From an uncultured Candidatus Saccharibacteria bacterium (GTDB lineage: Bacteria; Patescibacteriota; Dojkabacteria; J137), in assembly GCA_964650085.1 (NCBI GenBank), contig CAZYSE010000003.1, positions 1,743 to 47,362 of the forward strand: a DNA stretch of 45,620 nucleotides. The letters are read 5' to 3'. This document shows, one piece after another, positions 2,118-12,778 of this stretch. Numbering within the stretch: the first letter of the stretch is position 1; every line of letters starts with the position of its first letter. A program made the position numbers and the translations under genes. The notes beneath the pieces are model-generated. The model had not been told where the DNA came from, did no database searches, and was given only the letters and a program-made list of their open reading frames with translations.

Positions 2118-2405
2118 ATGAACCAGAATCCACAAAGCGAGCTATGGATGAAATTATTACCAGGTAATGGCGAAGGAGGACACATGTCTGGTTTATACTC
2201 GACTACTGACCAAATTATCGACCTGAGATGTAATAATAATGGCGGTTTCTGGATGCAGTATAAATACGGCCCGATATATTCAATCAGTGCAGAAGATTAT
2301 CACAAGATAGCAAAAGCTCTAAAAACCAGAACGCCTGCAGACATTATAGAAAGTATGATCTTGAAGATGGAACTAAACGAGGTAATGGTAAAAGAAGAAG
2401 CCTAA
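2118..2405 (+). CDS. hypothetical protein
   Basis: 95-aa ORF starting 1 nt after the previous stop; last gene of a four-gene plus-strand string. Confidence 0.45.
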   Translation: MNQNPQSELWMKLLPGNGEGGHMSGLYSTTDQIIDLRCNNNGGFWMQYKYGPIYSISAEDYHKIAKALKTRTPADIIESMILKMELNEVMVKEEA

Positions 2406-3037
2406 TTGTCTTCCTCAAGTTCTTCAAATGCTTCCCCGATTCTTCTTCGGAACAGAAAGAGTATGCTTGCAGTTACGACAACAATCTCTAGACCTATAAT
2501 AAAGTAGATCTCCACCTTACTTCGCACCACTGATTCGGTACAGTCTAATAATCTAGTAGATGACCCAAACTTACCTGCCGTACTTTGATATAGTGAATCC
2601 TGACTTTCAGCACTCAAAAAAATCCCTTCTTTTTCAAGAACAGAAGCTATGTCCACTGGTTGATTAAATTCCTCAACTAACTTGTCTAGAAGACTTCTTT
2701 TAGTTTGAGTTGCATCCCTACAATTTAACTCTACTTTGCTCTCTGGGTATTTATCTGAAATGATTAAGAAATCAAACACATATTCGTCTGTAGAAAACAT
2801 AGAATAAGTTATTCCATTGACAATGTCGTCAGTTTTGAAGATTGAGCTAGGTGTTAATGTAATGTCTACAAGATCACCTAAAGGGAAATCTAAAGTATAG
2901 TCACTTTGGCTTTCAATGGTTTGTTTGCCTACAGAAAGAAGTTGGATATTCTCAGAATTGAAAAACAAAATACCTACGATTGATAATCCTAAGACTACCC
3001 AAACAAATGCTAATGTATCTAGATATTTCCCTTTCAT
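2402..3037 (-). CDS. bitopic/two-TM membrane protein, unknown function
   Basis: Hydrophobic helices at the N-terminus (LAFVWVVLGLSIVGILFF) and C-terminus (IYFIIGLEIVVVTASILFLF). It starts 2 nt after the stop of the upstream 3040..5325 gene and is the last gene of the envelope operon. Confidence 0.55.
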   Translation of the reverse strand: MKGKYLDTLAFVWVVLGLSIVGILFFNSENIQLLSVGKQTIESQSDYTLDFPLGDLVDITLTPSSIFKTDDIVNGITYSMFSTDEYVFDFLIISDKYPESKVELNCRDATQTKRSLLDKLVEEFNQPVDIASVLEKEGIFLSAESQDSLYQSTAGKFGSSTRLLDCTESVVRSKVEIYFIIGLEIVVVTASILFLFRRRIGEAFEELEEDN

Positions 3038-3039
3038 TC

Positions 3040-5325
3040 TTAGTAGACTATTAACGCCATTCTATTGGCAAATGACCAGTAGTAATCAAAAGTTCCAACA
3101 TCGATCCAGAATGGTCCAAACCAAGGGTCATTTAAATAAAAACTTGTAGGTGCCTCTACTGGTCCTGTAAAACCTGTTACTACTCCACCGTGCATTCCAC
3201 TAAATGCATGAACATAAGTTCCATCGTCCGAGGTCCAAGAAATATTCGCTCCGCTACTAACACCATTGTATCTCCAAATTACAACAGGTCGACCTTGTTG
3301 CACTTCTCTAGCTAAATCAGAAACATTCCAGCCAACTCTAGGATCTGAAGATATTCCTCGTGCTGCGAAAATGTTTTGTATCGGTGGGTAATACACTCCA
3401 TAGCCCCAGCTACCATCAGCGTTTCCAACGTATTCAGCATATGGATTTCCCGTCCATGAATCTGAAACTCTATTTGCATCGTATCCAATTTCTGCAATTA
3501 AACCTGTAGCATCTGCGGAGAAACCCTTGTATGCTAACACCATCTTTGCGGTGTAAATGTTACAAGAGAAACTACCCGCAGGTTGATAGTAAATAGGCAT
3601 TGTAAACACATAAACATTAGATCTGGTTGTAAAACTGAATGATTCTGTAGTAGCACTTGGTAATCCGTGAATGGATTTTATACCTGCAGCTATTTGCACC
3701 GTATAAACAGTATTAAACGCCATAGGTTGCAAAACTGCATAGACCATTGTGTTCCCTTCCCATCTAAATACTCCAGGAACTCCAGGAGTGACAGTCAGCT
3801 TACTTTGAGCATCAGCTGTATCTACTGGTTGGTCAAAAGTAATTTTAATATCTGCATATTCACTTACATATGTAGAACCGTTTCTAGGTAAATGATCGAT
3901 CATTCCTACCTTACCTACAGTTTTGAAGTCATAGATAATTTCTTTATCTGTTACACCATCCATTTTGCTACGCATTCCACTTTCGAATTTGACTTTGTAA
4001 GGCGTATCTTTTGGAAGTGGAGCAACATTAACAAAATTTAGTGTTTTGTCATCGTCCCATTTAAATTCTCCTTCGATTGCTGGCTCAATAGTAACTTTTT
4101 CCTCTACACTTTCTTTGTTCATTTCTTCAGAAAATACGATTTTGATCTTCTCATCGGATCTCACGATGTTACCAGTAGGTGCAAATGTATCAATCAACGG
4201 CTCTTTAACAGTAGTAAATTTAAGATCTTTGACTTTAACAATATCGCTAGTTTCAACTATTTCTTTCGTAGCAATGTTTACACGTTTTGGTTGGTAGAAG
4301 ATTGTGACTGTGTACGCCTTACCTTGATCAAGTAATTCCTTTGGAGTAAGTTTCAAAACTTTATCAGGAGTAAATTCTAATTCGAAATCTACAACAGGCA
4401 CCGATTTGAAGCTCCACTCGACAAGATCACGACTTTCTCTATCTAGTTTTAAATAGATGCTGTCTTCACGCTTTACATTATCTGCGTTGTTTTCAGGAAA
4501 AGTAGATTCAATCAAAGGTAGTGGGGGAGCTACGAACGCAAAACCGTATTCGTGCTGAGTAGGGTCAGTAAATTTTTTAATACCAGAAATGTATAGTACG
4601 TAACGCTGGTTTGGATATGAAGAAATATCAATAATAAACTTTCCTTTTCTTGTAAGAGCTTTATTTCCCAGATATGGTTCCCATTCCCAATAACCTTCAA
4701 TTTCCGGAGTAATCGTAGGTTTAAGCGTTGAAACATCTACAGGAAGATTAAAGAACACTTCTATTGGTTCATCATAATCAGGTAATGCTTGAGCATATTT
4801 TGGATAATGGCTCTGTAGTTCTGGGTGTCTAAATACATAAGATCCCAAGAATAATCCAATGAAAGATAAAATCAAAATTACATTGAATAACGCAAACCTT
4901 TTCTTACTGAATCTCGATTCGTATAAACCAATAGTTATTTGAAACAGATTCCCAATCACAAAAAGTCCAAGTATTACAAGCATCGCCCCTGCATAAATAT
5001 TGAAGTCAACTTTACTTAAATAGTAAGTGATGTCCTCAGGTGCCGTTATATCCAAGTACAACCAGCAAATTAGGTAGGCAGCAATTGACTGTACTCCAAT
5101 TATTGCTAATATAATTTTGAGGGTTTGCTTGTTTATTCTAGAGTAGAATTTCTTCGGAAAATGAAGAATTCCTTGATGTGCTTTTAGAGCACCTTTTTCT
5201 GCTTTTGAAAATAGAAAAAATACTGGGTAAAAGGTTTTTGAAGCAACTTTCTTACCTTTTGATTTAAAAGGAGATGTTTTTACTTCCTTAACCGGATCTT
5301 TTTGGTTCTTTCCGTTAATCTCCAT
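3040..5325 (-). CDS. membrane protein with Ig-like repeat domains and a C-terminal C39-like cysteine peptidase domain
   Basis: The N-terminal region of about 170 aa has 3-4 TM helices. The middle has repeated beta-rich modules of SbsA-type Ig-like style (e.g. IKIVFSEEMNKESVEEKVTIEP, IKITFDQPVDTADAQSKLTVTPGV). The C-terminus (about 3043..3603), PIYYQPAGSFSCNIYTAKMVLAYKG...GRPVVIW...HGGVVTGF...NDPW, matches the Peptidase_C39_2 pattern. Confidence 0.7.
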   Translation of the reverse strand: MEINGKNQKDPVKEVKTSPFKSKGKKVASKTFYPVFFLFSKAEKGALKAHQGILHFPKKFYSRINKQTLKIILAIIGVQSIAAYLICWLYLDITAPEDITYYLSKVDFNIYAGAMLVILGLFVIGNLFQITIGLYESRFSKKRFALFNVILILSFIGLFLGSYVFRHPELQSHYPKYAQALPDYDEPIEVFFNLPVDVSTLKPTITPEIEGYWEWEPYLGNKALTRKGKFIIDISSYPNQRYVLYISGIKKFTDPTQHEYGFAFVAPPLPLIESTFPENNADNVKREDSIYLKLDRESRDLVEWSFKSVPVVDFELEFTPDKVLKLTPKELLDQGKAYTVTIFYQPKRVNIATKEIVETSDIVKVKDLKFTTVKEPLIDTFAPTGNIVRSDEKIKIVFSEEMNKESVEEKVTIEPAIEGEFKWDDDKTLNFVNVAPLPKDTPYKVKFESGMRSKMDGVTDKEIIYDFKTVGKVGMIDHLPRNGSTYVSEYADIKITFDQPVDTADAQSKLTVTPGVPGVFRWEGNTMVYAVLQPMAFNTVYTVQIAAGIKSIHGLPSATTESFSFTTRSNVYVFTMPIYYQPAGSFSCNIYTAKMVLAYKGFSADATGLIAEIGYDANRVSDSWTGNPYAEYVGNADGSWGYGVYYPPIQNIFAARGISSDPRVGWNVSDLAREVQQGRPVVIWRYNGVSSGANISWTSDDGTYVHAFSGMHGGVVTGFTGPVEAPTSFYLNDPWFGPFWIDVGTFDYYWSFANRMALIVY

Positions 5326-8281
5326 CTGTAAATGATACCTTATTCCAGTTATTATAGGTAGTTTCTAATGTAGAATACACTACAGGCCCTCTATCTTCTC
5401 TAAAAATAAAGTTACCTGTATAGTCGAACAAACCTCTGATTTTTGTACTATCAAACACTGGGAAGCCATGCGGGTGGCTCAAATATGTTAAGACTTGTGG
5501 TTTAGATAGTACGTCACCTTTTGTAGGATAATTTTGATTAAATCGAGAGAACAATTCGTCTAGAGGAAACCAATATGAGTCTGCTCCATTGTTAGGAAAT
5601 TCCCAAATATTTAGTCTTTCACCTGTCCAGGTATTAATATTGTTCCTACTAGGTAAAAACGGAGTTGTTGTCGCAGATAGATTCCATGGAATAATTGTAC
5701 TGCCTGTCCATGCTGGGTTCAGAACTCCTCCCGTTCTACCTGAAGAGTCGAGCACAAACCCTTTGTTTGAAAGCGCTTGCAAAAGTGCTATGCTAGTCAT
5801 CCAACCACCTGACCTAAACATAGTTGGTCTAGGTAAACCATGTTCAGCAAACTTATCTATACTCCATTGTAGTATTTTTTCATTTTCTGCTTGTGTGTAT
5901 GCATCTAAGGAGGTTTCGTCTCGATTGCTTCCAACAATTTGAGCTTCGGGTCGCTTGGTTACACCAACTTCTTCAAGTAAATCCGCATAGTAATGTAAAT
6001 GTAATCCAATTGCATCTCCTTGTCCTCTTCTTTGGTTCACTAAATTTACATAATATTGTGCGCTTGCAGGGTCGACAGAGTAAATCGAGTATTGATTTTT
6101 TACGAAGATTCTCGGATTGAAAAAATGTGTTACAGGTACTCCATACTTGGAAGAAATATCAAATATATCATTAGATTCGTATGCCCCTACACCCCAACCT
6201 TCCCAGTCCATAGTCCACGTTAAGTAAAGCGGATAACTAACATAGAAAGGTATTTTGTAAGTATTATATACGTTTATACTGTCTCTAAGTTCTATAGCCG
6301 TTGCCTCGACTGTATAGTAACCTGGATTTAAATTTGTAGTATCAATATCTGATGCATATGTAAGACCGTCTGCACTTGTCATTTCACCCTGAATATCTGT
6401 ATTTTCTACTTTGTAAATTATGTATTCTACATTTTTATTTTCGACTGGGACTTTAACACTGAAAGTAAGTCTTGGATTTTCAGGATAATCTTTTAGGAAC
6501 CACCTCTTATTAGTGCTTGCTTCGAAGGCATGTTGCGTTTTGTCGCCTAAATTTACATCGACAGCATTATCTATCCCGGCTTGATCTTGTGGTGCTGGAG
6601 ATAATTCTGAATAGTCGTTTCCGTAATAAATGAAGTACTGCAAATCACCAGGATTGTATTTAAACAACACAGCTGTTCTATCTGTGTTTGGATCTCTAAT
6701 AATTATTGGTACTTCTTTATAAGTTATTGCATCGTACTCCACAACTCTTATATCTTCGCCAGAGTGTTTCCTTAGACGGTTTTCTTGCACAACAGCCGAG
6801 TGATTCAAGGTTATTTTGGACCATCGTTGTGAAAGGAAAATTTGATCACTTGTGAGGTCTTCTACATTTACTTTTTGGTAGTATCTAAAATTGTCTTCGT
6901 ACCACTTTTCTGCAGAGCTGTTAATTACGAAACCACGCTCAACTTCATTTACGTTTACATTTAAGTCTTTACCACTTACGACTCTGTTGTCAGTGATGAC
7001 TAAGAAAAACGTTGCCCCAACTATGAACGCTAAGAGGAAAGGCAATACAATATTAACAAAGTAAAAATCTGTATTAAGATAGCCATCTAAAACGTAGTAA
7101 GCACCAATAATTTTTTCTTTTACAAAAATTATTAAAGTGGTGAGTGCAAGTACTCCAATGTAAAAGAATAAAACATACATGAATCTATCAAACCTCCACT
7201 CAACTTCTGCATATTGCGCATCCATGTAGTATTTGAAAACTAATAGTAGCGCAGTATGAATTACAAAGTAAGATAATGCGTTTTTACTAATAAACGTAAC
7301 TAATCCTCGAACACGATTGAATAGTGTTTCGATTCGTAAAACGGTAAAAAGCACTATTAAAGAAAGCGCTATGCTTAGTAGTACAAATCCGATTTGTGGT
7401 GGAAAACGATGACTGAATACAGAGTACCCAAAAAGAGTGTCCGGAATAACAAAATTTAGTAATACAGAAATTATTGTTAAACTTCCAACAAGGCCTAGTA
7501 ACATCATAAGTTGCTTTCTAAATGCTGCTTTAGATAATTCGGCTCGTTGAGATAGAAGCTTTCCAATAAATAGCCCTGTTAGGAATATAGGGAAGTATTG
7601 TAAAAAAGGAAATGTGTGAACGTTACCATGTCCAGAAAATAGTGCCTTAATTAGGTTTAACCTATCCTGCCCCAAATCAACTTGATATAGAATAGTTCCT
7701 ACAAAATACGAGATTGCTCCAGCAATTACTAGGATTCTGTAGTCTTTTAATAAAAATTTGTAAACTCTTCTAAAAAGTAACAAGCTTAAGCTAAACACTA
7801 CAAAAGTCACTAAGAATTCTGTGAATTCAGGGACTCTTAGTAGTAGAATTATTTGGAGAATATCAGTAACTATTGCTTCGCTGGTGTTTGTAGTAAAAGC
7901 TAGACCATAAGCAAACAATGAAAGAGCAGCAAGAACATAATACGCAAGTAAAATTTGAAGTGTTCTTTTCAAAGATTTTAATTGTCGGTGCCTAAGATTC
8001 CTTCTACTATTTGCTTCGAGAGAAATAGTTGTAAAGTAGCTGGTAGATCCGGAAACTAGCAAGAAAAGTGTGAAAGATATGGTTCCCCCAAATGCACCTA
8101 CTAGAAACGCAATCTGACTTGCTCCTTCTTTGTGGCTGAAAACAATTGCTACTACGTGAGTAACAATCATAAAGAGTACAGCTAAGGCACGAGTAATATC
8201 TATAGAAAATATACGTCTTGAATTTCCTTCTCTGATCTTTTCGATATTCCTTGTTGTTTTAAGTTTCAAAAATTTCTTCAT
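5315..8281 (-). CDS. fusion protein: multipass acyltransferase-like (DUF1624/acyltransferase_3-like) membrane domain, beta-rich middle region, C-terminal CE4-like polysaccharide deacetylase-like domain
   Basis: The N-terminal region of about 440 aa has about 10 TM helices and begins IDITRALAVLFMIVTHV, as in heparan-glucosaminide/acyltransferase-3-type proteins. The C-terminal part (about 5318..6214) has NodB-like motifs by eye: TWTMDWEG (TFDDG-like), HLHYY (HxxH-like) and MFRSGGW (RxPxG-like). It overlaps the next gene by 11 nt. Confidence 0.6.
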   Translation of the reverse strand: MKKFLKLKTTRNIEKIREGNSRRIFSIDITRALAVLFMIVTHVVAIVFSHKEGASQIAFLVGAFGGTISFTLFLLVSGSTSYFTTISLEANSRRNLRHRQLKSLKRTLQILLAYYVLAALSLFAYGLAFTTNTSEAIVTDILQIILLLRVPEFTEFLVTFVVFSLSLLLFRRVYKFLLKDYRILVIAGAISYFVGTILYQVDLGQDRLNLIKALFSGHGNVHTFPFLQYFPIFLTGLFIGKLLSQRAELSKAAFRKQLMMLLGLVGSLTIISVLLNFVIPDTLFGYSVFSHRFPPQIGFVLLSIALSLIVLFTVLRIETLFNRVRGLVTFISKNALSYFVIHTALLLVFKYYMDAQYAEVEWRFDRFMYVLFFYIGVLALTTLIIFVKEKIIGAYYVLDGYLNTDFYFVNIVLPFLLAFIVGATFFLVITDNRVVSGKDLNVNVNEVERGFVINSSAEKWYEDNFRYYQKVNVEDLTSDQIFLSQRWSKITLNHSAVVQENRLRKHSGEDIRVVEYDAITYKEVPIIIRDPNTDRTAVLFKYNPGDLQYFIYYGNDYSELSPAPQDQAGIDNAVDVNLGDKTQHAFEASTNKRWFLKDYPENPRLTFSVKVPVENKNVEYIIYKVENTDIQGEMTSADGLTYASDIDTTNLNPGYYTVEATAIELRDSINVYNTYKIPFYVSYPLYLTWTMDWEGWGVGAYESNDIFDISSKYGVPVTHFFNPRIFVKNQYSIYSVDPASAQYYVNLVNQRRGQGDAIGLHLHYYADLLEEVGVTKRPEAQIVGSNRDETSLDAYTQAENEKILQWSIDKFAEHGLPRPTMFRSGGWMTSIALLQALSNKGFVLDSSGRTGGVLNPAWTGSTIIPWNLSATTTPFLPSRNNINTWTGERLNIWEFPNNGADSYWFPLDELFSRFNQNYPTKGDVLSKPQVLTYLSHPHGFPVFDSTKIRGLFDYTGNFIFREDRGPVVYSTLETTYNNWNKVSFTDGD

Positions 8282-8284
8282 ATT

Positions 8285-9703
8285 TTAATTTTCATCTGGG
8301 ATTTTTGTAGCCCAATTTATCTTGTCATCAATACTCATTCCGAGAGCATACTCTGTGGCTGCTTGTAAAAATGGAAATAAGCAGTACAAAAAAATATTAA
8401 CCAATCCTAATGGCAAGAACAATAAAACCGTAATTATTATTGTTACTAAAGACATCTTACTATTTTCTAAGGTTAATTTGAACACCCAGGGGCTTCCGAT
8501 TATAAGCAGAACAAAGCTTATATATGAGAGTGAGCTTAACAAACCGGCTGTTGGGCTTAAAAAAAGAAAAAGAATAATAGCGGCTGGAAGTGCTTTCAAA
8601 AGAATTGTTACATCTAGGAAGTAAATAAGCTTAAGTGTTTTCGAAAACAAATTCATTTTAGCGCTTAGTATAGATTTAATTGCATCAGGGAAAACGATAA
8701 TACCCCAACCCCATCTATGGATTTGCTTGTATTGTTCAACATGGGTTGCTAAATAGTTTTCTGACTCGATACAATCAACGGAAATTGGAATGAAAAAGGA
8801 TCTGCATTCAAAGTCACCGTCAAAATATTTAAACGCCCGCCAGTATATTGGCGAATCGTCTATTGAAATGGAGGTGTCCCAGTAGTTAATTGCGACTAAT
8901 GTTTTAAGTGGGATAGTAAAGCAAGAAAACGTATATCGGTTTTGATTTTCCGTAAAAGCAGAAGACAATGTCCCAATGCTTATCCCAATAGATACAATTC
9001 TTATCGCAACAGGAACTCGGTTTATATTGTTGTCGAATTTGTAAATTCCAGTTTGGTAGAAAACATTTTTCCTCTTTGAATCTTTTAGCCATTCATAAGC
9101 TACTCTTGCAAAGTAATTCTTATGGAATACAGTATCCGCATCAGGTGATGTAACTAAGAAGTCTTCGATCTTCATATTTGAAGATTCCAGATATTCAACA
9201 GCTACTCTGACTGCATTTGTTCTATTAGCTGCAGCACCTGCAACTTCCATCTTGCCTAAATAGTGTTCGACTATCAATAACTTGTCCCCAATAGTTTTCT
9301 TGAAGTAACTCTCAAGCTGACTTTTTAATGTTACAAAATTCTCGTTAGCTTCTATGGATACTGAGACAAAAAGCTTGTTAATATCATAGTTTTGATTCAG
9401 AATTGAATCAATATTTCGCTTAACTATCGATACGTCTTCTTTGTTTACTGGAATAGCAATCAATTGGTATGGAAGGTCATTTTCAATCATACTAAGCCAG
9501 TTAACTTCAATTTCTTTTCGATATTGATTGTACCCACTAATAACACCGTAAAGAAGGTTAAACGATTTAAAAGTTCCGTAGAAGATGTATGTTGCAAAAA
9601 TCACATAGAAGAAATCCTGTCCCTGCGACAAAAATATGACTGGCAGAATTAGAATTGCAAAGTAAGAGGCAAATGGAAATATCTTAAGAAAATTTTCTTT
9701 CAT
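8285..9703 (-). CDS. membrane-embedded processive family-2 glycosyltransferase (cellulose/PNAG/hyaluronan-synthase-like)
   Basis: N-terminal TM helices are followed by a GT2 core: IAIPVNKEDVSIVKRNIDSILNQNY, the DxD-like SPDADTVF, and the Q-x-x-R-W motif QIHRWGWG. C-terminal TM helices follow. Confidence 0.75.
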   Translation of the reverse strand: MKENFLKIFPFASYFAILILPVIFLSQGQDFFYVIFATYIFYGTFKSFNLLYGVISGYNQYRKEIEVNWLSMIENDLPYQLIAIPVNKEDVSIVKRNIDSILNQNYDINKLFVSVSIEANENFVTLKSQLESYFKKTIGDKLLIVEHYLGKMEVAGAAANRTNAVRVAVEYLESSNMKIEDFLVTSPDADTVFHKNYFARVAYEWLKDSKRKNVFYQTGIYKFDNNINRVPVAIRIVSIGISIGTLSSAFTENQNRYTFSCFTIPLKTLVAINYWDTSISIDDSPIYWRAFKYFDGDFECRSFFIPISVDCIESENYLATHVEQYKQIHRWGWGIIVFPDAIKSILSAKMNLFSKTLKLIYFLDVTILLKALPAAIILFLFLSPTAGLLSSLSYISFVLLIIGSPWVFKLTLENSKMSLVTIIITVLLFLPLGLVNIFLYCLFPFLQAATEYALGMSIDDKINWATKIPDEN

Positions 9704-9733
9704 AACTAATTTTAGCGTATGAAAGGTAAAAAG

Positions 9734-10648
9734 CTATTTAATTACCGAGAAAACCCATAACGACAAAAGTGCAAAACATATTCCAGCAAGCCAGAATCGC
9801 TGTACCATTTTAGTTTCTGGCCATCCAATTGCTTCAAAATAATGATGAATAGGAGCTATTCGGAAAAGCTTCTTTTTTCTGAATTTTAATGAAAGAATTT
9901 GAAGTGCACTGGAAGTAACTTCTGCCCAAAATGCTAATCCCATAATCACAAATATATCTACTGTATTGGTAATAATTGCAAACATAATCAATGCATATGC
10001 GATAGGGAAAGTACCTGTCCCTCCCATAAAAACTCTTGCAGGATTAATATTGAAGTATAGATAAACAATACATGATCCAATTAATAAGCCAATAATAGGA
10101 AGTAGCTCAGTATGACCAGTCATAACTGATATTACCAGGTATGTAGTTAAGGCTATTAAATATAGCCCTGTCGCAAGTCCATCTGCACCGTCGATAATTT
10201 CCATTCCATAAATTGCTACCACCATAAAAAAGCCACCAATAAAAATGGATAGTGCATTAACTGGTATTAAAATTCCAAAAATCGTAAGTGAAGTCAATCC
10301 ATAGTGATCCTGCAACAAAATCAACGGAAGTATTGTGATAATATAAAGCACTACTAGCTTTCCCATTCTCATTCCAAAACTGTTGTCCAGCGCTTTCAGT
10401 GTTGTGCTTAGCTTTCTGCCGTATGTTAGTAATCCTTCAGCTAACCCAAAAATCGTATAAATTACAAAAGGCAATACAAACACAAGCTTTAAATTCGTAT
10501 CTGTCAGTAAAATAAGCGACAGTATAGCCACAGTTACAGAAATCATTAGTCCGCCCAAAGTTGGCGTCCCAAATTTGTGACCGTGTATTTTCATGAATTC
10601 TTCATTTGTTCGATCAGGCATTAAAATTACTTTCACAACCAAATTCAT
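9734..10648 (-). CDS. mraY: phospho-N-acetylmuramoyl-pentapeptide transferase (MraY)
   Basis: MraY motifs are present: KFGTPTLGG, DGADGLATG and APIHHYFEAIGWPETKMVQRFW. The annotated ATG probably truncates TM1 (see findings). Confidence 0.85.
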   Translation of the reverse strand: MNLVVKVILMPDRTNEEFMKIHGHKFGTPTLGGLMISVTVAILSLILLTDTNLKLVFVLPFVIYTIFGLAEGLLTYGRKLSTTLKALDNSFGMRMGKLVVLYIITILPLILLQDHYGLTSLTIFGILIPVNALSIFIGGFFMVVAIYGMEIIDGADGLATGLYLIALTTYLVISVMTGHTELLPIIGLLIGSCIVYLYFNINPARVFMGGTGTFPIAYALIMFAIITNTVDIFVIMGLAFWAEVTSSALQILSLKFRKKKLFRIAPIHHYFEAIGWPETKMVQRFWLAGICFALLSLWVFSVIK

Positions 10649-10800
10649 TTTGTAGAGAAGTTGGATAAGAATTGGAGCCCAAACTGCAGTTGCGAAAAAA
10701 CCTATTAAAACAGCGGTATTGTATTAAGCATAAATAGTTTTTAAACAAATTATTATTACATAAGTAGAGCAGAGTGTACAATCTGTTTAGAAGCTAGAAT

Positions 10801-11715
10801 TTACTGTGCAAAATGAATAAATCCATTCTTTGATTCAATATTTTGATAGTTTTCGAATATTACTAAGTCACCAATTTTCAATGTAGAACCTTCTGCACTT
10901 ATCACTAGAGTTTTTCCACTTGCGGTGACGACAGAAGGCATACCTGCTAATTGGAACGTAGAAAACTTACCAACAATAATAAAGTCCTCGATTACACTTT
11001 CTGGAACTACTGATTCTGTAAACAAATAAGTAATGTTGTCGCTTTTTAGTAAGTTATCTTGTGCATCTGTCAATTTCTCCTCTCCGGCAAAAAGCTTAAC
11101 GTTTTTTACAATTTCGTTATCGGCTTCGATTTGAACACTGTTAACAAAGGTAATATTTGTAGGCAAAAGTACATTATCAAGCTTAATAAAATACCCATTA
11201 CTTGACTTATATATGGAGTTATCAAACTCAAAGCTGTTGCCAACTGAATCACGTACTGTAGATCCAGCATCGGTACTCGAGATTCTAATAACTTGACCTT
11301 CTAGAGTTGTTAATTCCCTCAACTTATTTAAATCTTGAGATGGAGTTAGTTTAACAATGTGAAGCGAAATAATTTTTCTTAGTTTATGGAGAAGTTCTGG
11401 CGTTTGAAGCTTTGTCGTATCCTCAGGGGAGATTCCTGAAAAACTTTCGTTAGTTGTTGCGAAAACTAAAAGATTTTCTCCATTTTTAAGTGTATTGTCT
11501 AAATTGGTTCGTGTTGCATTGTCTAGGAAAATTGAAAAGTCTGGTATGGTTGAGAGGTTGTCGTAAATGCTTTTACTTTCATCTATTGAATACCCCGCGT
11601 ACCTCGTTTCTATATTCGAATTCACAGTTTTATTAAATACAAAAAATGTAATACCTGCGAGAGCAACGAGTAGTATTATTGATAGCAAAGTTTGATTTTT
11701 GGTTATGAATTTCAT
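10801..11715 (-). CDS. membrane-anchored fasciclin (FAS1) domain protein
   Basis: An N-terminal TM helix (LLSIILLVALAGITFFV) is followed by a FAS1-like pattern: IPDFSIFLDNATRTNLDNTLKNGENLLVFATTNESF. I prefer the ATG at 11715 (MKFITKNQ) to the TTG at 11742. Confidence 0.65.
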   Translation of the reverse strand: MKFITKNQTLLSIILLVALAGITFFVFNKTVNSNIETRYAGYSIDESKSIYDNLSTIPDFSIFLDNATRTNLDNTLKNGENLLVFATTNESFSGISPEDTTKLQTPELLHKLRKIISLHIVKLTPSQDLNKLRELTTLEGQVIRISSTDAGSTVRDSVGNSFEFDNSIYKSSNGYFIKLDNVLLPTNITFVNSVQIEADNEIVKNVKLFAGEEKLTDAQDNLLKSDNITYLFTESVVPESVIEDFIIVGKFSTFQLAGMPSVVTASGKTLVISAEGSTLKIGDLVIFENYQNIESKNGFIHFAQ

Positions 11716-11785
11716 ACTGGTCAATTGTAATAATTTAAGCAAAATTGTACAAGGTAAAAACTACTAGTCATGCGATAATATTTTT

Positions 11786-12778
11786 ATGAAAACATACACA
11801 TTTAAAATTGAAGGCACACATTGTGCTGCGTGCGAGATAATCATTGAGCGCGAGGTTAAGAAGTTGCCCGGTATCTTAGGTATTGAATACAAGCATGGAG
11901 GTGAAGAAGTAGTTGTCAGTTTTGATGATTCTAAGATAGAAGATATTAATAGTCAGATAAAAAACGTATTAGAAAAAAACGGCTACAAAATTGATGAGGG
12001 AGTTGTTGGAATAAGAAATAAGAAAAAAGAATGGTTTGATGCAATAATGATAGCTGTATCTGTAATTTCAATCTATGTAATTCTGCAAAACCTTTTGAAA
12101 ACGGATTTTACTGTTTCGGGAGAAATTAATTTTATTAGCATCTTTATTATAGGAATTATTGCTTCAGTCTCTACTTGCATGGCGGTAGTTGGGGGAATAG
12201 TTTTGAGTTTATCTTCTCAATTTGCTAAGAATGGCAAGTTCACTCCAATAATTTCATTTCATGTTTCGCGATTGCTATCATTTTTTATACTTGGTGGTGT
12301 AATTGGAGCAATCGGCAGTGTATTGCGACCTACCTTGGCTTTTCAAGGTGCATTAGAAATCATTTTGTTCATAGTGTTTGTAGTGTTAGGCTTAAACCTA
12401 CTTGGATTTAATGTTTTTAAATTTGGACTATCAAAAAAAATCGGTGCAAAATCTATTAGTTTTTTGAGTAAAACTACATCTTCAACTATAGGCAATCTAT
12501 CGGCTATTGCAGCAGGTGCTGTAACCTTTGTTTTGCCGTGTGGATTCACGCAAGCTGCTCAATTCAGTGCAATTGGTTCAGGCAGTTTCTTGTCGGGAGG
12601 TTTAATAATGTTAGTGTTTGCTTTAGGAACTTTTCCCGTACTAGCGATAATTAGTTTTTTGTCAGTTAGATTTATCCAACCAACTTTCTACAAAGCGTCT
12701 GGGTTAATAATCATTTCATTCGCATTTATTAATGTTTTACAAAACTGGGAGAAAATACGAGTAGGCTTAGGATTTTGA
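11786..12778 (+). CDS. heavy-metal-associated (HMA) domain fused to a TauE/SafE- or DsbD_2-like membrane transporter domain
   Basis: The N-terminal ferredoxin-like HMA domain has the metal-binding motif GTHCAACE (GMTCxxC type). It is followed by about 6 TM helices that include a VLPCGF motif. Confidence 0.65.
   Translation: MKTYTFKIEGTHCAACEIIIEREVKKLPGILGIEYKHGGEEVVVSFDDSKIEDINSQIKNVLEKNGYKIDEGVVGIRNKKKEWFDAIMIAVSVISIYVILQNLLKTDFTVSGEINFISIFIIGIIASVSTCMAVVGGIVLSLSSQFAKNGKFTPIISFHVSRLLSFFILGGVIGAIGSVLRPTLAFQGALEIILFIVFVVLGLNLLGFNVFKFGLSKKIGAKSISFLSKTTSSTIGNLSAIAAGAVTFVLPCGFTQAAQFSAIGSGSFLSGGLIMLVFALGTFPVLAIISFLSVRFIQPTFYKASGLIIISFAFINVLQNWEKIRVGLGF

What the first reader, a model, noticed from the sequence alone, without database searches (positions are those of the whole stretch)
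2402..10648. mraY heads a five-gene envelope operon resembling an Ica/Pga-type exopolysaccharide synthase-modification machine
Five minus-strand genes are packed with gaps or overlaps of -11 to +30 nt. In order they are: a bona fide MraY; a membrane GT2 with the processive-synthase Q-x-x-R-W motif (QIHRWGWG); a 988-aa fusion protein; a multi-TM protein with several Ig-like repeats and a C39-like cysteine peptidase domain; and a two-TM protein. The 988-aa fusion joins a roughly 10-TM acyltransferase-like domain, a beta-rich spacer and a CE4 (NodB)-like deacetylase-like domain.

A processive GT2 plus a deacetylase plus a membrane acyltransferase is the logic of IcaA/IcaB/IcaC and PgaC/PgaB (poly-N-acetylglucosamine). 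Here the last two functions appear fused in one polypeptide. The set is linked to mraY rather than to the usual dcw (murD/ftsW/murG) neighbours.

This could be an undescribed surface glycopolymer system, with the C39-like/Ig protein as a surface-processing or attachment component.
Basis: partly seen in the sequence, partly recalled or inferred. Interest (0 to 1): 0.6.

Follow-up and report, generated by a model that had tools for sequence, protein, structure and literature searches.

The report
CPR envelope sugar-tailoring gene pair
The five tightly packed envelope genes are real, but only two of them (a membrane acyltransferase fused to a deacetylase-like domain, and a surface cysteine-peptidase-like protein) always travel together across the tiny uncultured CPR/Patescibacteria bacteria. 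They form an undescribed cell-surface tailoring module. The link to mraY and to the polysaccharide synthase is local to this genus.

Summary
Five minus-strand genes lie at 2402-10731, spaced +30, +3, -11 and +2 nt, and every domain call is verified.

The "one Ica/Pga-like machine headed by mraY" reading is only partly supported.
- g3 (AT3 acyltransferase, TM11, beta-sandwiches, NodB/CE4-fold barrel) and g4 (3 TM, Big_5 stalk, YvpB/C39-like domain with conserved Gln-Cys-His-Asp) are adjacent in 36/36 fetched loci. They are also adjacent in 65/67 species-representative loci. These span Dojkabacteria, WWE3, CPR2, CPR3, Wirth-, Berkel-, Gottesman- and Magasanikbacteria.
- mraY is adjacent only in this genus.
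- The HAS/BcsA-fold GT2 is adjacent in only three genera, yet occurs in 270/301 Patescibacteria genomes. g3 occurs in 25/301.
- Elsewhere the pair sits beside ArnC/PgfS-like GT2 and ArnT-like GT-C genes.

mraY is the genome's only MraY. It is a variant with altered catalytic residues (DD to EG, N to E, D to G). Its missing start codon is a 4-nt gap in this assembly.

Best reading: a CPR-restricted extracytoplasmic module that deacetylates and acylates amino sugars. It has OatA/OafA architecture, with a NodB fold replacing SGNH. The substrate is unknown.

The parts
9734..10731 (-). g1: MraY-family phospho-sugar transferase, variant 'type A'. The true ORF is about 333 aa from the ATG at 10731. 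The window lacks 4 nt between 10717 and 10718, which breaks the frame.
   Evidence: TIGR00445 gives 143.6 bits against a cut-off of 192. It is the only MraY-like hit in the genome. Same-genus orthologs are 333 aa and start MLNTITTA. Contigs of runs X2, X3 and X5 carry the AGTG insertion. Motif changes are DD to EG, N to E and D to G.
10752..10780 (-). Promoter-like site (TGTACA-N17-AATAAT with an upstream TG) ahead of mraY. It is conserved in the three genomes of the genus.
   Evidence: Consensus scan (itself no better than chance) and upstream sequences of G001 and G002. Inferred, not shown.
8285..9703 (-). g2: membrane GT2 with a hyaluronan/cellulose-synthase-like fold (2 N-terminal TM helices, GT-A domain, QxxRW interface helix, 3 C-terminal helices).
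   Evidence: PF13632 at 33.4 bits. Invariant D188, D190, D282, D283, Q327, R330, W331. AF2 pLDDT 87.4. Foldseek hits 7sp8/7sp9/9yq2 with TMq 0.54-0.57, plus BcsA, HAS1 and Chs1.
7112..8215 (-). g3 N-terminal AT3 (TmAT) acyltransferase domain, residues about 23-390, with R31-X10-H42.
   Evidence: PF01757 at 51.6 bits and PF07786 at 30.4 bits. R/K31 and H42 are conserved in 89/89 full-length homologs. The motif is defined in PMC7448272.
6986..7063 (-). g3 extra transmembrane helix (TM11, residues about 407-432). It would place the C-terminal part outside the membrane.
   Evidence: Hydropathy peak at 411-429. The outside placement is inferred by analogy with the 11th TMH of AT3-SGNH proteins (PMC7448272).
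6236..6904 (-). g3 beta-sandwich spacer (residues about 460-682).
   Evidence: The AF2 model is all-beta over fragment residues 27-242, with pLDDT above 90.
5318..6235 (-). g3 C-terminal NodB/CE4-fold barrel (residues about 683-988). D692, H761, H763, R823, W827, N898, D901, L934 and H936 are invariant; E694, D767, D845, S847 and R849 are conserved in at least 90% of sequences.
   Evidence: AF2 pLDDT 94.8. Foldseek hits: 3rxz, 3qbu (HpPgdA), 8t0j (ArnD), 2cc0, 6h8l (PdaC), 4m1b, with TMt 0.6-0.73. Conservation in 105 sequences. DUF2334 24.2 bits and Polysacc_deac_1 13.8 bits, both below cut-off.
4840..5115 (-). g4 membrane anchor: three TM segments (residues 71-162) after a Lys-rich N-terminus.
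   Evidence: Hydropathy.
3625..4773 (-). g4 stalk of Ig-like domains (Big_5 x3, with a Big_10-like match).
   Evidence: Pfam PF13205 at 100.4 bits in 3 stretches.
3043..3600 (-). g4 C-terminal YvpB/C39-like papain-fold domain with Q581, C588, H712 and D733.
   Evidence: PF13529 at 62.3 bits. The tetrad is conserved in 32 orthologs across the phylum. The profile hits PDB 3erv 'putative C39-like peptidase' at E 1.6e-22.
2402..3037 (-). g5: bitopic-loop protein (TM at 8-26 and 177-195, with about 150 aa outside). It is a variable third member of the module.
   Evidence: No Pfam, NCBIfam or PHROG match. Homologs follow g4 in 10/37 and 10/80 loci.

Best explanation
The five genes are probably one transcription unit in this genus, but they are a juxtaposition rather than one conserved machine.

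The conserved functional unit is g3 plus g4, with g5 as a variable third partner. It is restricted to CPR/Patescibacteria and works outside the cytoplasmic membrane.

g3 is built like OatA/OafA. It has a 10-TMH AT3 domain that passes an acyl group from cytoplasmic acyl-CoA across the membrane (R31-X10-H42). An 11th helix follows, then an extracytoplasmic catalytic domain. Here the usual SGNH domain is replaced by two beta-sandwiches and a NodB (CE4-like) metal-hydrolase barrel.

g4 is anchored by three helices. It holds a YvpB/C39-like Cys-His-Asp domain on a stalk of Ig-like domains.

Most likely mechanism (inferred):
- The NodB barrel removes N-acetyl (or O-acetyl) groups from hexosamine residues of an envelope glycoconjugate.
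- The AT3 domain supplies an acyl group for re-decoration of the same polymer.
- g4 cuts or transfers a peptide or acyl moiety on it.

My estimate for the substrate:
- About 35%: a surface glycan decoration delivered from polyprenyl-phosphate sugars by GT-C enzymes (Arn/Lgm/Pgf-like logic, as in other CPR classes).
- About 25%: peptidoglycan.
- About 15%: the polymer made by the neighbouring HAS-like GT2.
- The rest: unknown.

g1 is the genome's housekeeping MraY, a variant form. g2 is a phylum-wide synthase-like GT2. Both were brought next to the pair only in this lineage.
For: Shown:
- g3 is followed by g4 on the same strand in 36/36 loci with room (window, 19 Dojkabacteria, 16 from other classes).
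- The same holds in 65/67 GTDB species-representative loci that have AT3 upstream.
- In about six lineages the AT3 part and the TM-beta-NodB part are separate adjacent genes, a Rosetta-stone link.
- AT3-less paralogs lack g4 (L155, L174, L178, L183).
- The AT3 motif R/K-X10-H is present in 89/89 full-length homologs (motif from PMC7448272).
- The NodB fold is confident, and the invariant residues lie at or next to the C-terminal ends of predicted beta-strands (fragment positions 252, 321/323, 383, 496).
- The g4 Gln-Cys-His-Asp tetrad is conserved in 32 orthologs. The domain is homologous to 3erv.
- mraY is adjacent only in the genus. GT2 is adjacent in 5/37 and 4/80 loci. GT2 is present in 270/301 phylum genomes against 25/301 for g3.
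- PMT_2 GT-C genes lie next to the pair in 11/37 and 27/80 loci. The best NCBIfam match of the e12 subgroup representative is ArnT (63.8 bits); the e13 representative has no NCBIfam match. A PgfS/ArnC-like GT2 lies upstream in 8/80 loci.
- This genome has one MraY, and MurG, FtsW and the Mur ligases are on other contigs.
Against: - No biochemical data exist for any member of either family.
- The NodB domain is below Pfam thresholds for both CE4 and DUF2334.
- The outside location of the NodB domain rests on topology inference only.
- In this genome no GT-C or ArnC-like GT2 lies next to the pair.
- The 3-nt GT2-g3 junction in three genera could still mean real coupling to the GT2 product.
- The role of g4 (peptidase, acyl- or transpeptidase, or even glycosylation acceptor) is open.
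Confidence: 0.6

Rival explanations
1. One reading: a single Ica/Pga-like, synthase-dependent exopolysaccharide machine. The processive GT2 (g2) polymerises and exports a GlcNAc-type polymer. The NodB domain of g3 partly de-N-acetylates it (like IcaB/PgaB) and the AT3 domain O-acylates it (like IcaC). g4 and g5 process or anchor it. mraY is co-regulated.
For: - g2 has the D, DxD, DD and QxxRW motifs and a HAS/BcsA-like fold.
- g2 ends 3 nt before g3. The same g2-g3-g4-g5 order occurs in three genera: the own genus, G005 and G006.
- The AT3 plus CE4-fold plus GT2 content matches IcaA/IcaB/IcaC (established knowledge; IcaC as an AT3 protein is noted in PMC12423673).
Against: - The g2-g3 adjacency is absent in 32/37 and 76/80 loci.
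- g2 homologs occur in 270/301 Patescibacteria genomes, whether or not g3-g4 is present.
- Elsewhere g2 has unrelated, variable neighbours.
- g2 has no match to the PgaC_IcaA equivalog model.
- mraY linkage is genus-specific.
- In other classes the partners of g3-g4 are ArnC/PgfS-like GT2 and GT-C genes.
Confidence: 0.15
2. A peptidoglycan-dedicated tailoring trio. g3 combines OatA-like O-acetylation with PgdA/PdaC-like N-deacetylation of the glycan strands. g4 is a papain-fold endopeptidase or amidase acting on stem peptides. This would explain why glycan-acetyl chemistry and peptide chemistry are always encoded together, and why the pair sits beside mraY here and beside mltG in some relatives.
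For: - Foldseek hits include the peptidoglycan deacetylases HpPgdA, PdaC, SpPgdA and BA0330.
- Peptidase_C39_2 is listed among the enzymatically active domains of endolysins of phages infecting Gram-positive hosts (PMC8223927).
- OatA is an AT3-fused peptidoglycan O-acetylase (PMC7448272 and PMC12423673).
- The genome has a full set of peptidoglycan genes.
- MltG lies two genes (cluster c12 between) to three genes upstream of g3 in five relatives (L034, L035, L037, L038 and, with two intervening ORFs, L027).
Against: - Peptidoglycan genes are near-universal in the phylum, while the pair is in only about 8% of sampled genomes.
- The recurrent neighbours are GT-C and polyprenyl-phosphate-sugar GT2 genes, which peptidoglycan tailoring does not need.
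- The mraY adjacency is confined to one genus.
- No SGNH domain is present to perform OatA-type transfer.
Confidence: 0.2
3. The adjacency has no functional meaning. g3, g4 and g5 are independent surface proteins kept together by chance or by shared regulation, and the NodB and C39-like domains are non-catalytic binding modules.
For: CE4 pseudoenzymes exist (BA3943, PDB 6hm9/6hpa, appear among the Foldseek hits). Neither family has a characterised member.
Against: The pair is conserved across many CPR classes at 28-40% identity. Candidate catalytic residues are invariant in both proteins. Fusion and fission of AT3 and NodB both occur.
Confidence: 0.05

Closest known systems
OatA / OafA / OafB (AT3-SGNH fused O-acetyltransferases of peptidoglycan and O-antigen)
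   Same: Same architecture: a 10-TMH AT3 domain with R/K-X10-H in TMH1, then an 11th TMH, a linker and an extracytoplasmic catalytic domain in one polypeptide (PMC7448272).
   Different: The fused domain is a NodB/CE4-fold barrel preceded by two beta-sandwiches, not an SGNH hydrolase. The AT3 reviews I searched list SGNH and racemase fusions but never mention a deacetylase fusion. An obligate papain-fold partner gene follows.
IcaADBC / PgaABCD poly-N-acetylglucosamine systems
   Same: Same gene content in the window: a QxxRW membrane GT2, a CE4-fold domain and an AT3 membrane acyltransferase (like IcaC).
   Different: The synthase is not conserved next to the modifying genes. There is no match to the PgaC_IcaA model and no IcaD/PgaD/PgaA counterparts were seen. 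The modifying pair is far rarer than the GT2 in the phylum.
Arn / Lgm / NaxD-type and Pgf-type lipid-carrier surface glycosylation (ArnC or PgfS GT2, ArnD or NaxD deformylase/deacetylase, ArnT or PgfM GT-C)
   Same: In other CPR classes the pair is flanked by a PgfS/ArnC-like GT2 (166.8 and 122.7 bits) and PMT_2 GT-C genes, one subgroup of which best matches ArnT (63.8 bits). ArnD is among the best structural matches of the NodB domain (8t0j, TMt 0.64).
   Different: All scores are far below the equivalog cut-offs. CPR have no lipid A. The NodB domain is predicted to be outside the membrane, whereas ArnD works at the cytoplasmic face. An AT3 domain and a C39-like protein are not part of those pathways. 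None of these partners is adjacent in the window.
CE4 peptidoglycan/chitin deacetylases (PgdA, PdaC, HpPgdA) and DUF2334 (PF10096)
   Same: Same NodB barrel fold. Conserved Asp, two His, Arg and an L-x-H motif sit at or next to strand ends.
   Different: Below the Pfam thresholds for PF01522 and PF10096. The His residues are spaced HxH. The first motif is T-x-D-W-E-G rather than TFDD.
YvpB / PDB 3ERV 'putative C39-like peptidase' (Peptidase_C39_2) and PCAT double-glycine peptidase domains
   Same: Clear homology (E 1.6e-22 to 3erv). The Gln-Cys-His-Asp tetrad is conserved.
   Different: Here the domain caps a membrane-anchored Big_5 stalk and is genetically tied to an AT3-NodB protein. YvpB itself is uncharacterised. 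There is no ABC transporter context.
Chlorella virus hyaluronan synthase / BcsA (membrane-integrated processive GT2)
   Same: For g2: same motif set and overall predicted fold (TMq 0.54-0.57 over the full length).
   Different: Only 12-16% identity and fewer C-terminal helices. There is no PilZ domain or partner subunits. The product is unknown and processivity is untested.
MraY (TIGR00445)
   Same: For g1: best family match, K-x-GTPTxGG loop, PxHH(Y/H)FE motif, sole copy in a genome with MurG, FtsW and Mur ligases.
   Different: Score below the cut-off. The canonical DD, N and D positions read EG, E and G. A second, canonical-motif type exists in sister genera.

Membership tests
AT3 / TmAT acyltransferases (PF01757) | Pfam score above the gathering threshold | tested here: met
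   48.5 bits (whole protein) and 51.6 bits (N-terminal 440 aa) against a cut-off of 31. The match covers profile positions 3-324 of 326.
AT3 / TmAT acyltransferases (PF01757) | R/K-X10-H motif in TMH1 (essential in OafA) | tested here: met
   R31 and H42 are separated by 10 residues. R/K and H are present in 89/89 full-length homologs. The motif is defined in PMC7448272.
AT3-SGNH fused subfamily (OatA/OafA) | C-terminal SGNH hydrolase domain after an 11th TMH | tested here: not met
   An extra TM is present at 411-429. The C-terminal domain is a NodB fold, with no SGNH match in Pfam or Foldseek.
CE4 / NodB polysaccharide deacetylases | NodB (beta/alpha) barrel fold | tested here: met
   AF2 model pLDDT 94.8. 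Foldseek hits 3rxz, 3qbu, 8t0j, 2cc0, 6h8l, 4m1b and 7fbw have TMt 0.60-0.73 and probability 1.00.
CE4 / NodB polysaccharide deacetylases | Sequence membership (PF01522 above threshold) | tested here: not met
   Polysacc_deac_1 scores 13.8 bits against 23.1. DUF2334 scores 24.2 against 26. The PDB profile search matches 3rxz only at E 0.05-0.2, over the Arg-motif region.
CE4 / NodB polysaccharide deacetylases | Asp-His-His metal triad plus catalytic Asp/His and Arg motifs | tested here: inconclusive
   D692, H761, H763, R823 and L934-x-H936 are invariant and E694 is conserved as E/D in 105 sequences. They lie at or next to predicted strand ends. The spacing is HxH, and the 3D geometry could not be measured because no coordinates were accessible.
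Ica/Pga PNAG system | Synthase of the PgaC/IcaA family | tested here: not met
   g2 has no NCBIfam match, including TIGR03937. Only the general GT2 family PF13632 (33 bits) and fold-level similarity to HAS/BcsA were found.
Ica/Pga PNAG system | Synthase and modifying genes conserved as one locus | tested here: not met
   g2 is adjacent to g3 in 5/37 and 4/80 loci. g2 is present in 270/301 genomes against 25/301 for g3.
Ica/Pga PNAG system | Small synthase partner (IcaD/PgaD) or export porin (PgaA) | not tested
   No candidate was seen among the five genes. g5 has no family match, and I made no dedicated search.
Processive membrane GT2 (HAS/BcsA/chitin synthase type) | D, DxD, (E/D)D and QxxRW motifs | tested here: met
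   D188, D190, D282, D283, Q327, R330 and W331 are invariant in 19 homologs.
Processive membrane GT2 (HAS/BcsA/chitin synthase type) | Fold with a GT-A domain packed on interface and TM helices | tested here: met
   Model pLDDT 87.4. CvHAS TMq 0.54-0.57 over about 470 aligned columns. BcsA, XlHAS1 and Chs1 are also among the top hits.
Processive membrane GT2 (HAS/BcsA/chitin synthase type) | Processive polymerisation and translocation | not testable with these tools
   Needs biochemistry. QxxRW also occurs in non-processive lipid glycosyltransferases (own knowledge).
MraY (TIGR00445 equivalog) | Score above the curated cut-off | tested here: not met
   143.6 bits against 192.05. The canonical-motif type B of sister genera is also below the cut-off, at 156-176 bits.
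MraY (TIGR00445 equivalog) | Three catalytic Asp residues (DD pair and the MGD Asp) and the Asn before DGxDGL | tested here: not met
   An alignment of 30 Dojkabacteria MraY sequences shows GLAEGLL, MEIIDGADGL and FMGGTGT in place of GGFDDVL, VNxxDGMDGL and QMGDVGS.
MraY (TIGR00445 equivalog) | K-x-GTPTMGG loop and PxHHHxE motif; sole copy alongside MurG, FtsW and Mur ligases | tested here: met
   HKFGTPTLGG and APIHHYFE. One MraY-like hit plus a WecA-like PNPT. Peptidoglycan genes are present.
Peptidase_C39_2 (YvpB-like) | Pfam score above threshold and homology to 3ERV | tested here: met
   62.3 bits against 24. The profile hits 3erv at E 1.6e-22.
Peptidase_C39_2 (YvpB-like) | Gln/Cys/His/Asp catalytic residues | tested here: met
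   Q581, C588, H712 and D733 are conserved in 32 orthologs across classes.
Arn/Lgm/Pgf-type lipid-carrier glycosylation | Polyprenyl-phosphate-sugar GT2 and GT-C transferase in the same locus | tested here: not met
   Absent from the window. GT-C is present within 4 kb in 27/80 loci and a PgfS/ArnC-like GT2 in 8/80 loci elsewhere. The own genome has only weak matches on other contigs.

The most novel reading that the evidence does not exclude
g3 and g4 together form a new class of trans-membrane acyl-transfer system. The papain-fold Cys-His-Asp domain of g4, not an SGNH domain, receives the acyl group exported by the AT3 domain as a thioester and transfers it onto an amine freshly exposed by the fused NodB deacetylase. 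The net reaction would be an N-acyl exchange (HexNAc to HexN-acyl) on the CPR cell surface. Precedents for papain-fold acyltransferases are BtrH, arylamine NATs and LRAT-type enzymes (own knowledge). This reading would explain three observations: AT3, NodB and the C39-like gene are inseparable, no SGNH domain is present, and AT3-less NodB paralogs lack g4.
Probability: 0.1. Interest if true: 0.8.

Novelty: new variant of a known kind. Interest (0 to 1): 0.5.

Why it matters
CPR/Patescibacteria are a large share of bacterial diversity. They live attached to host cells and their envelope chemistry is almost unknown.

A two-gene module restricted to this group, conserved from Dojkabacteria to Microgenomates-type lineages, marks a surface modification that these organisms keep despite extreme genome reduction. 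It combines an acyl exporter, a deacetylase fold and a surface cysteine hydrolase.

The module also extends the known repertoire of AT3 fusions beyond SGNH and racemase domains. It gives a concrete, expressible target (the soluble NodB and C39-like domains) for finding out what polymer covers these cells.

The analysis also corrects two tempting over-readings. mraY does not head a dedicated polysaccharide operon. The missing mraY start codon is a 4-nt gap in this assembly (an error or a rare variant), not an unusual initiation mechanism.

Tried and rejected
- Full-length AF2 of the 988-aa protein failed. I modelled residues 441-988 instead, so the AT3/NodB interface was not seen.
- Model coordinates are not exposed to the Python box, so Asp-His-His distances could not be measured.
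- Sequence searches of g2 and g4 against the PDB as single sequences gave nothing useful. The g3 profile gave only a marginal CE4 hit.
- PHROGs gave no informative match.
- Word-indexed homolog searches for g4 and g2 were truncated by candidate overflow, returning 10 and 19 hits. Whole-genome searches replaced them.
- The promoter/terminator scan was no better than shuffles.
- No RNA run holds the locus, so co-transcription is untested.
- Literature searches for DUF2334, YvpB, and Patescibacteria with deacetylase and acyltransferase found no functional study.
- I looked for a GT2 versus g3 co-occurrence signal and rejected it. GT2 is present in 270/301 sampled genomes, so its presence carries no information.
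- I considered g1 as a dedicated initiating transferase for the polymer and rejected it. It is the only MraY-type gene in a genome with a peptidoglycan pathway. Type A and type B MraY mostly replace each other among 41 relatives.

Full report
**Observation**

The window comes from a 1.16-Mb, 103-contig genome.

Five minus-strand ORFs occupy 2402-10648. Their spacing is +30 nt (g1-g2), +3 (g2-g3), -11 (g3-g4) and +2 (g4-g5).

- g1 is a GT4/MraY-family protein.
- g2 is a Glyco_trans_2_3 GT2.
- g3 has Acyl_transf_3/HGSNAT_cat over residues 26-384 and a sub-threshold DUF2334 match over residues 705-873.
- g4 has three Big_5 stretches and Peptidase_C39_2 (residues 576-735).
- g5 has two TM segments and no family match.

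Hydropathy gives three TM segments in g4, two in g5, and an extra helix at residues 411-429 of g3, after the AT3 core.

**Is g1 a bona fide MraY, and is there another?**

g1 scores 143.6 bits on TIGR00445, against a cut-off of 192. It is the only MraY-like gene in the genome. The second hit (44 bits, contig C15) is a WecA-like transferase.

MurG (C12), FtsW (C2) and five Mur-ligase-domain genes (C52 x2, C76, C27, C5) are present but scattered. There is therefore no dcw cluster from which mraY could have "escaped". g1 must be the housekeeping enzyme.

Among 41 relatives there are two MraY types.
- Type B carries the canonical GGFDDVL, VNxxDGMDGL and QMGDVGS motifs.
- Type A, which includes g1, reads GLAEGLL, MEIIDGADGL and FMGGTGT. 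The changes are DD to EG, N to E and D to G.
- Both types keep the GTPTxGG loop. Type A keeps PxHH(Y/H)FE, while type B reads PxH(H/Y/L)H(F/L)(Q/E).
- The two types mostly replace each other. Both are present only in G016, G021 and G024.

The start codon missing in the window has a simple explanation.
- Same-genus orthologs are 333 aa and begin MLNTITTA.
- The window has that ATG at 10731, but out of frame.
- Contigs from three other public runs carry four extra bases (AGTG after + strand position 10717) that restore the frame.
- In the best-holding run the contigs break exactly there.

This is an assembly error or a minor variant, not an unusual start.

**Is the gene order conserved?**

In 20 loci from the same genus, family, order and class, g4 follows g3 in all 19 that have room. 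mraY is adjacent only in the two same-genus genomes. g2 is adjacent only there and in G005 and G006.

In a sample of 301 Patescibacteria genomes, the g3 C-terminal half occurs in 25, mostly as open frames of about 960-1000 aa. In 16 of 16 such loci from other classes, g4 lies immediately downstream.

A scan of GTDB species representatives found 121 loci, all apparently CPR. Some carry obviously automated labels such as "Gammaproteobacteria". They include WS6/Dojkabacteria, WWE3, CPR2, CPR3, Wirth-, Berkel-, Doudna-, Gottesman-, Magasanik- and Chisholmbacteria. Of the 80 loci kept, 67 have an AT3 part upstream and at least 1 kb downstream. Of those, 65 have g4.

Three further points tie AT3, NodB and g4 together:
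- In about six lineages the AT3 part and the TM-beta-NodB part are separate adjacent genes.
- AT3-less paralogs of about 560-600 aa are common.
- In the four AT3-less loci with full flanks (L155, L174, L178, L183), the paralog is not followed by g4.

The conserved unit is therefore AT3 plus NodB plus g4.

The third gene varies:
- a g5-like two-TM protein in 10/37 and 10/80 loci;
- an AI-2E-family transporter plus a small protein in 6/37 and 8/80 loci;
- a PMT_2 GT-C glycosyltransferase in 11/37 and 27/80 loci.

The representative of the GT-C subgroup that follows g4 on the same strand best matches ArnT; the convergently oriented subgroup has no NCBIfam match. In 8-9 of the 80 loci a PgfS/ArnC-like GT2 and a PRK07233-type FAD oxidoreductase lie upstream.

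**The GT2**

g2 homologs keep D188xD190, D282D283 and Q327xxR330W331. The AF2 model (pLDDT 87.4) is most similar to Chlorella virus hyaluronan synthase (TMq 0.54-0.57, E about 1e-9). It is next most similar to BcsA, Xenopus HAS1 and yeast Chs1.

However, g2-like genes occur in 270 of 301 Patescibacteria genomes. They occur in all 41 close relatives, at positions unlinked to g3-g4. Examples are G003 (524 kb against 52 kb) and G007 (97 kb against 607 kb). Their neighbours are variable. g2 is a phylum-wide gene, not a dedicated partner of the pair.

**The fusion protein g3**

The AT3 domain has R31-X10-H42, conserved as R/K and H in 89/89 full-length homologs. This is the motif shown to be essential in OafA. 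In AT3-SGNH proteins an 11th helix places the fused domain outside the membrane (PMC7448272).

The model of residues 441-988 is very confident (pLDDT 94.8, pTM 0.90). It shows an all-beta region followed by an alpha/beta barrel. The best structural matches (TMt 0.60-0.73) are CE4/NodB proteins:
- the M. smegmatis putative deacetylase 3rxz;
- H. pylori PgdA;
- Salmonella ArnD;
- CE4 acetylxylan esterases;
- PdaC;
- BA0150.

D692, H761, H763, R823, W827, N898, D901, L934 and H936 are invariant in 105 sequences. E694, D767, D845, S847 and R849 are conserved in at least 90% of them. The key residues sit at or next to the C-terminal ends of predicted strands.

Sequence-level membership of CE4 or DUF2334 is below threshold, and I could not measure the metal-site geometry. 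The fold is there, and plausible ligands are conserved.

Two reviews of AT3 proteins list SGNH and racemase fusions and never mention a deacetylase fusion.

**g4 and g5**

The C-terminal domain of g4 is homologous to PDB 3ERV, an uncharacterised YvpB-like "C39-like peptidase" (E 1.6e-22). It is weakly homologous to a PCAT double-glycine peptidase. Q581, C588, H712 and D733 are conserved in 32 orthologs from across the phylum.

Peptidase_C39_2 is listed among the catalytic domains of endolysins of phages of Gram-positive hosts (PMC8223927). I found no functional work on YvpB. g5 has no detectable relatives outside these loci.

**Interpretation**

Shown:
- the anatomy of the five genes;
- the deep conservation of the g3-g4 pair;
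- the lineage-specific nature of the mraY and GT2 adjacency;
- the fold assignments.

Inferred:
- the NodB domain and the C39-like domain are extracytoplasmic;
- they act on the same acetylated amino-sugar glycoconjugate;
- the AT3 domain supplies an acyl group.

The recurrent ArnC/PgfS-like GT2 and GT-C neighbours in other classes point to a decoration built from polyprenyl-phosphate sugars, in Arn/Lgm/Pgf-like logic. I rate this the most likely ancestral context, at about 35%. Peptidoglycan tailoring is about 25%. None of these can be settled without biochemistry.

**Novelty**

The module works like the AT3-fused acyltransferases and the CE4 deacetylases but is not a member of any described system. 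It fails the defining SGNH feature of OatA/OafA. It fails the locus-conservation and synthase-family features of Ica/Pga. It lacks the Arn/Pgf partners in this genome. I class it as a new variant of a known kind and rate it of moderate interest.

Noticed in passing
window 10698-10731: The window lacks 4 nt (AGTG after + strand position 10717) that contigs of three other public runs carry. With them, mraY starts at the ATG at 10731 and encodes TM1 (MLNTITTAVLIGFF...). In the best-holding run the contigs break exactly here. The start codon that is missing in the window is therefore an assembly error or minor variant.
   Followed up: yes
window 9734-10648; loci L087-L116: Dojkabacteria have two MraY types that mostly replace each other. 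Type B has the canonical DD / N / D catalytic positions. Type A (this gene) reads EG / E / G. Three genomes (G016, G021, G024) carry both.
   Followed up: partly
G000 contig C15, locus L002:1225-2487 (-): A 420-aa WecA/TagO-like polyprenyl-phosphate GlcNAc-1-P transferase (ECA_wecA, 52.8 bits) is the genome's second PNPT. It could initiate a lipid-linked glycan.
   Followed up: no
window 8285-9703 and 270 of 301 sampled Patescibacteria genomes: The HAS/BcsA-fold GT2 is close to universal in the phylum, as frames of about 500-560 aa. A second paralog of about 560-600 aa is also present (own genome C2:40533-41423). Its product is unknown, and it may be a core CPR envelope function.
   Followed up: partly
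e.g. G003:C1:535382-536848, L155, L174, L178, L183: Many genomes carry a paralog of the g3 C-terminal half (TM, beta-sandwiches, NodB; about 560-600 aa). It has no AT3 domain and no g4 next to it.
   Followed up: partly
L071, L075, L076, L078, L080 and L134, L138, L148, L152, L160, L166: In other CPR classes the g3-g4 pair is embedded in a larger set: a PRK07233-type FAD oxidoreductase, a PgfS/ArnC-like GT2, AT3-NodB, Big_5-C39, and a PMT_2 GT-C.
   Followed up: partly
G010:C1:261725-264694: The g3 homolog of genome G010 is broken into several frames with an internal stop. It appears to be a decaying copy.
   Followed up: no
window 10801-12778: A 313-aa TM-anchored Fasciclin-domain protein and a divergent DsbD_2 protein with an N-terminal HMA domain lie upstream of mraY. 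They keep this position in the three genomes of the genus.
   Followed up: no
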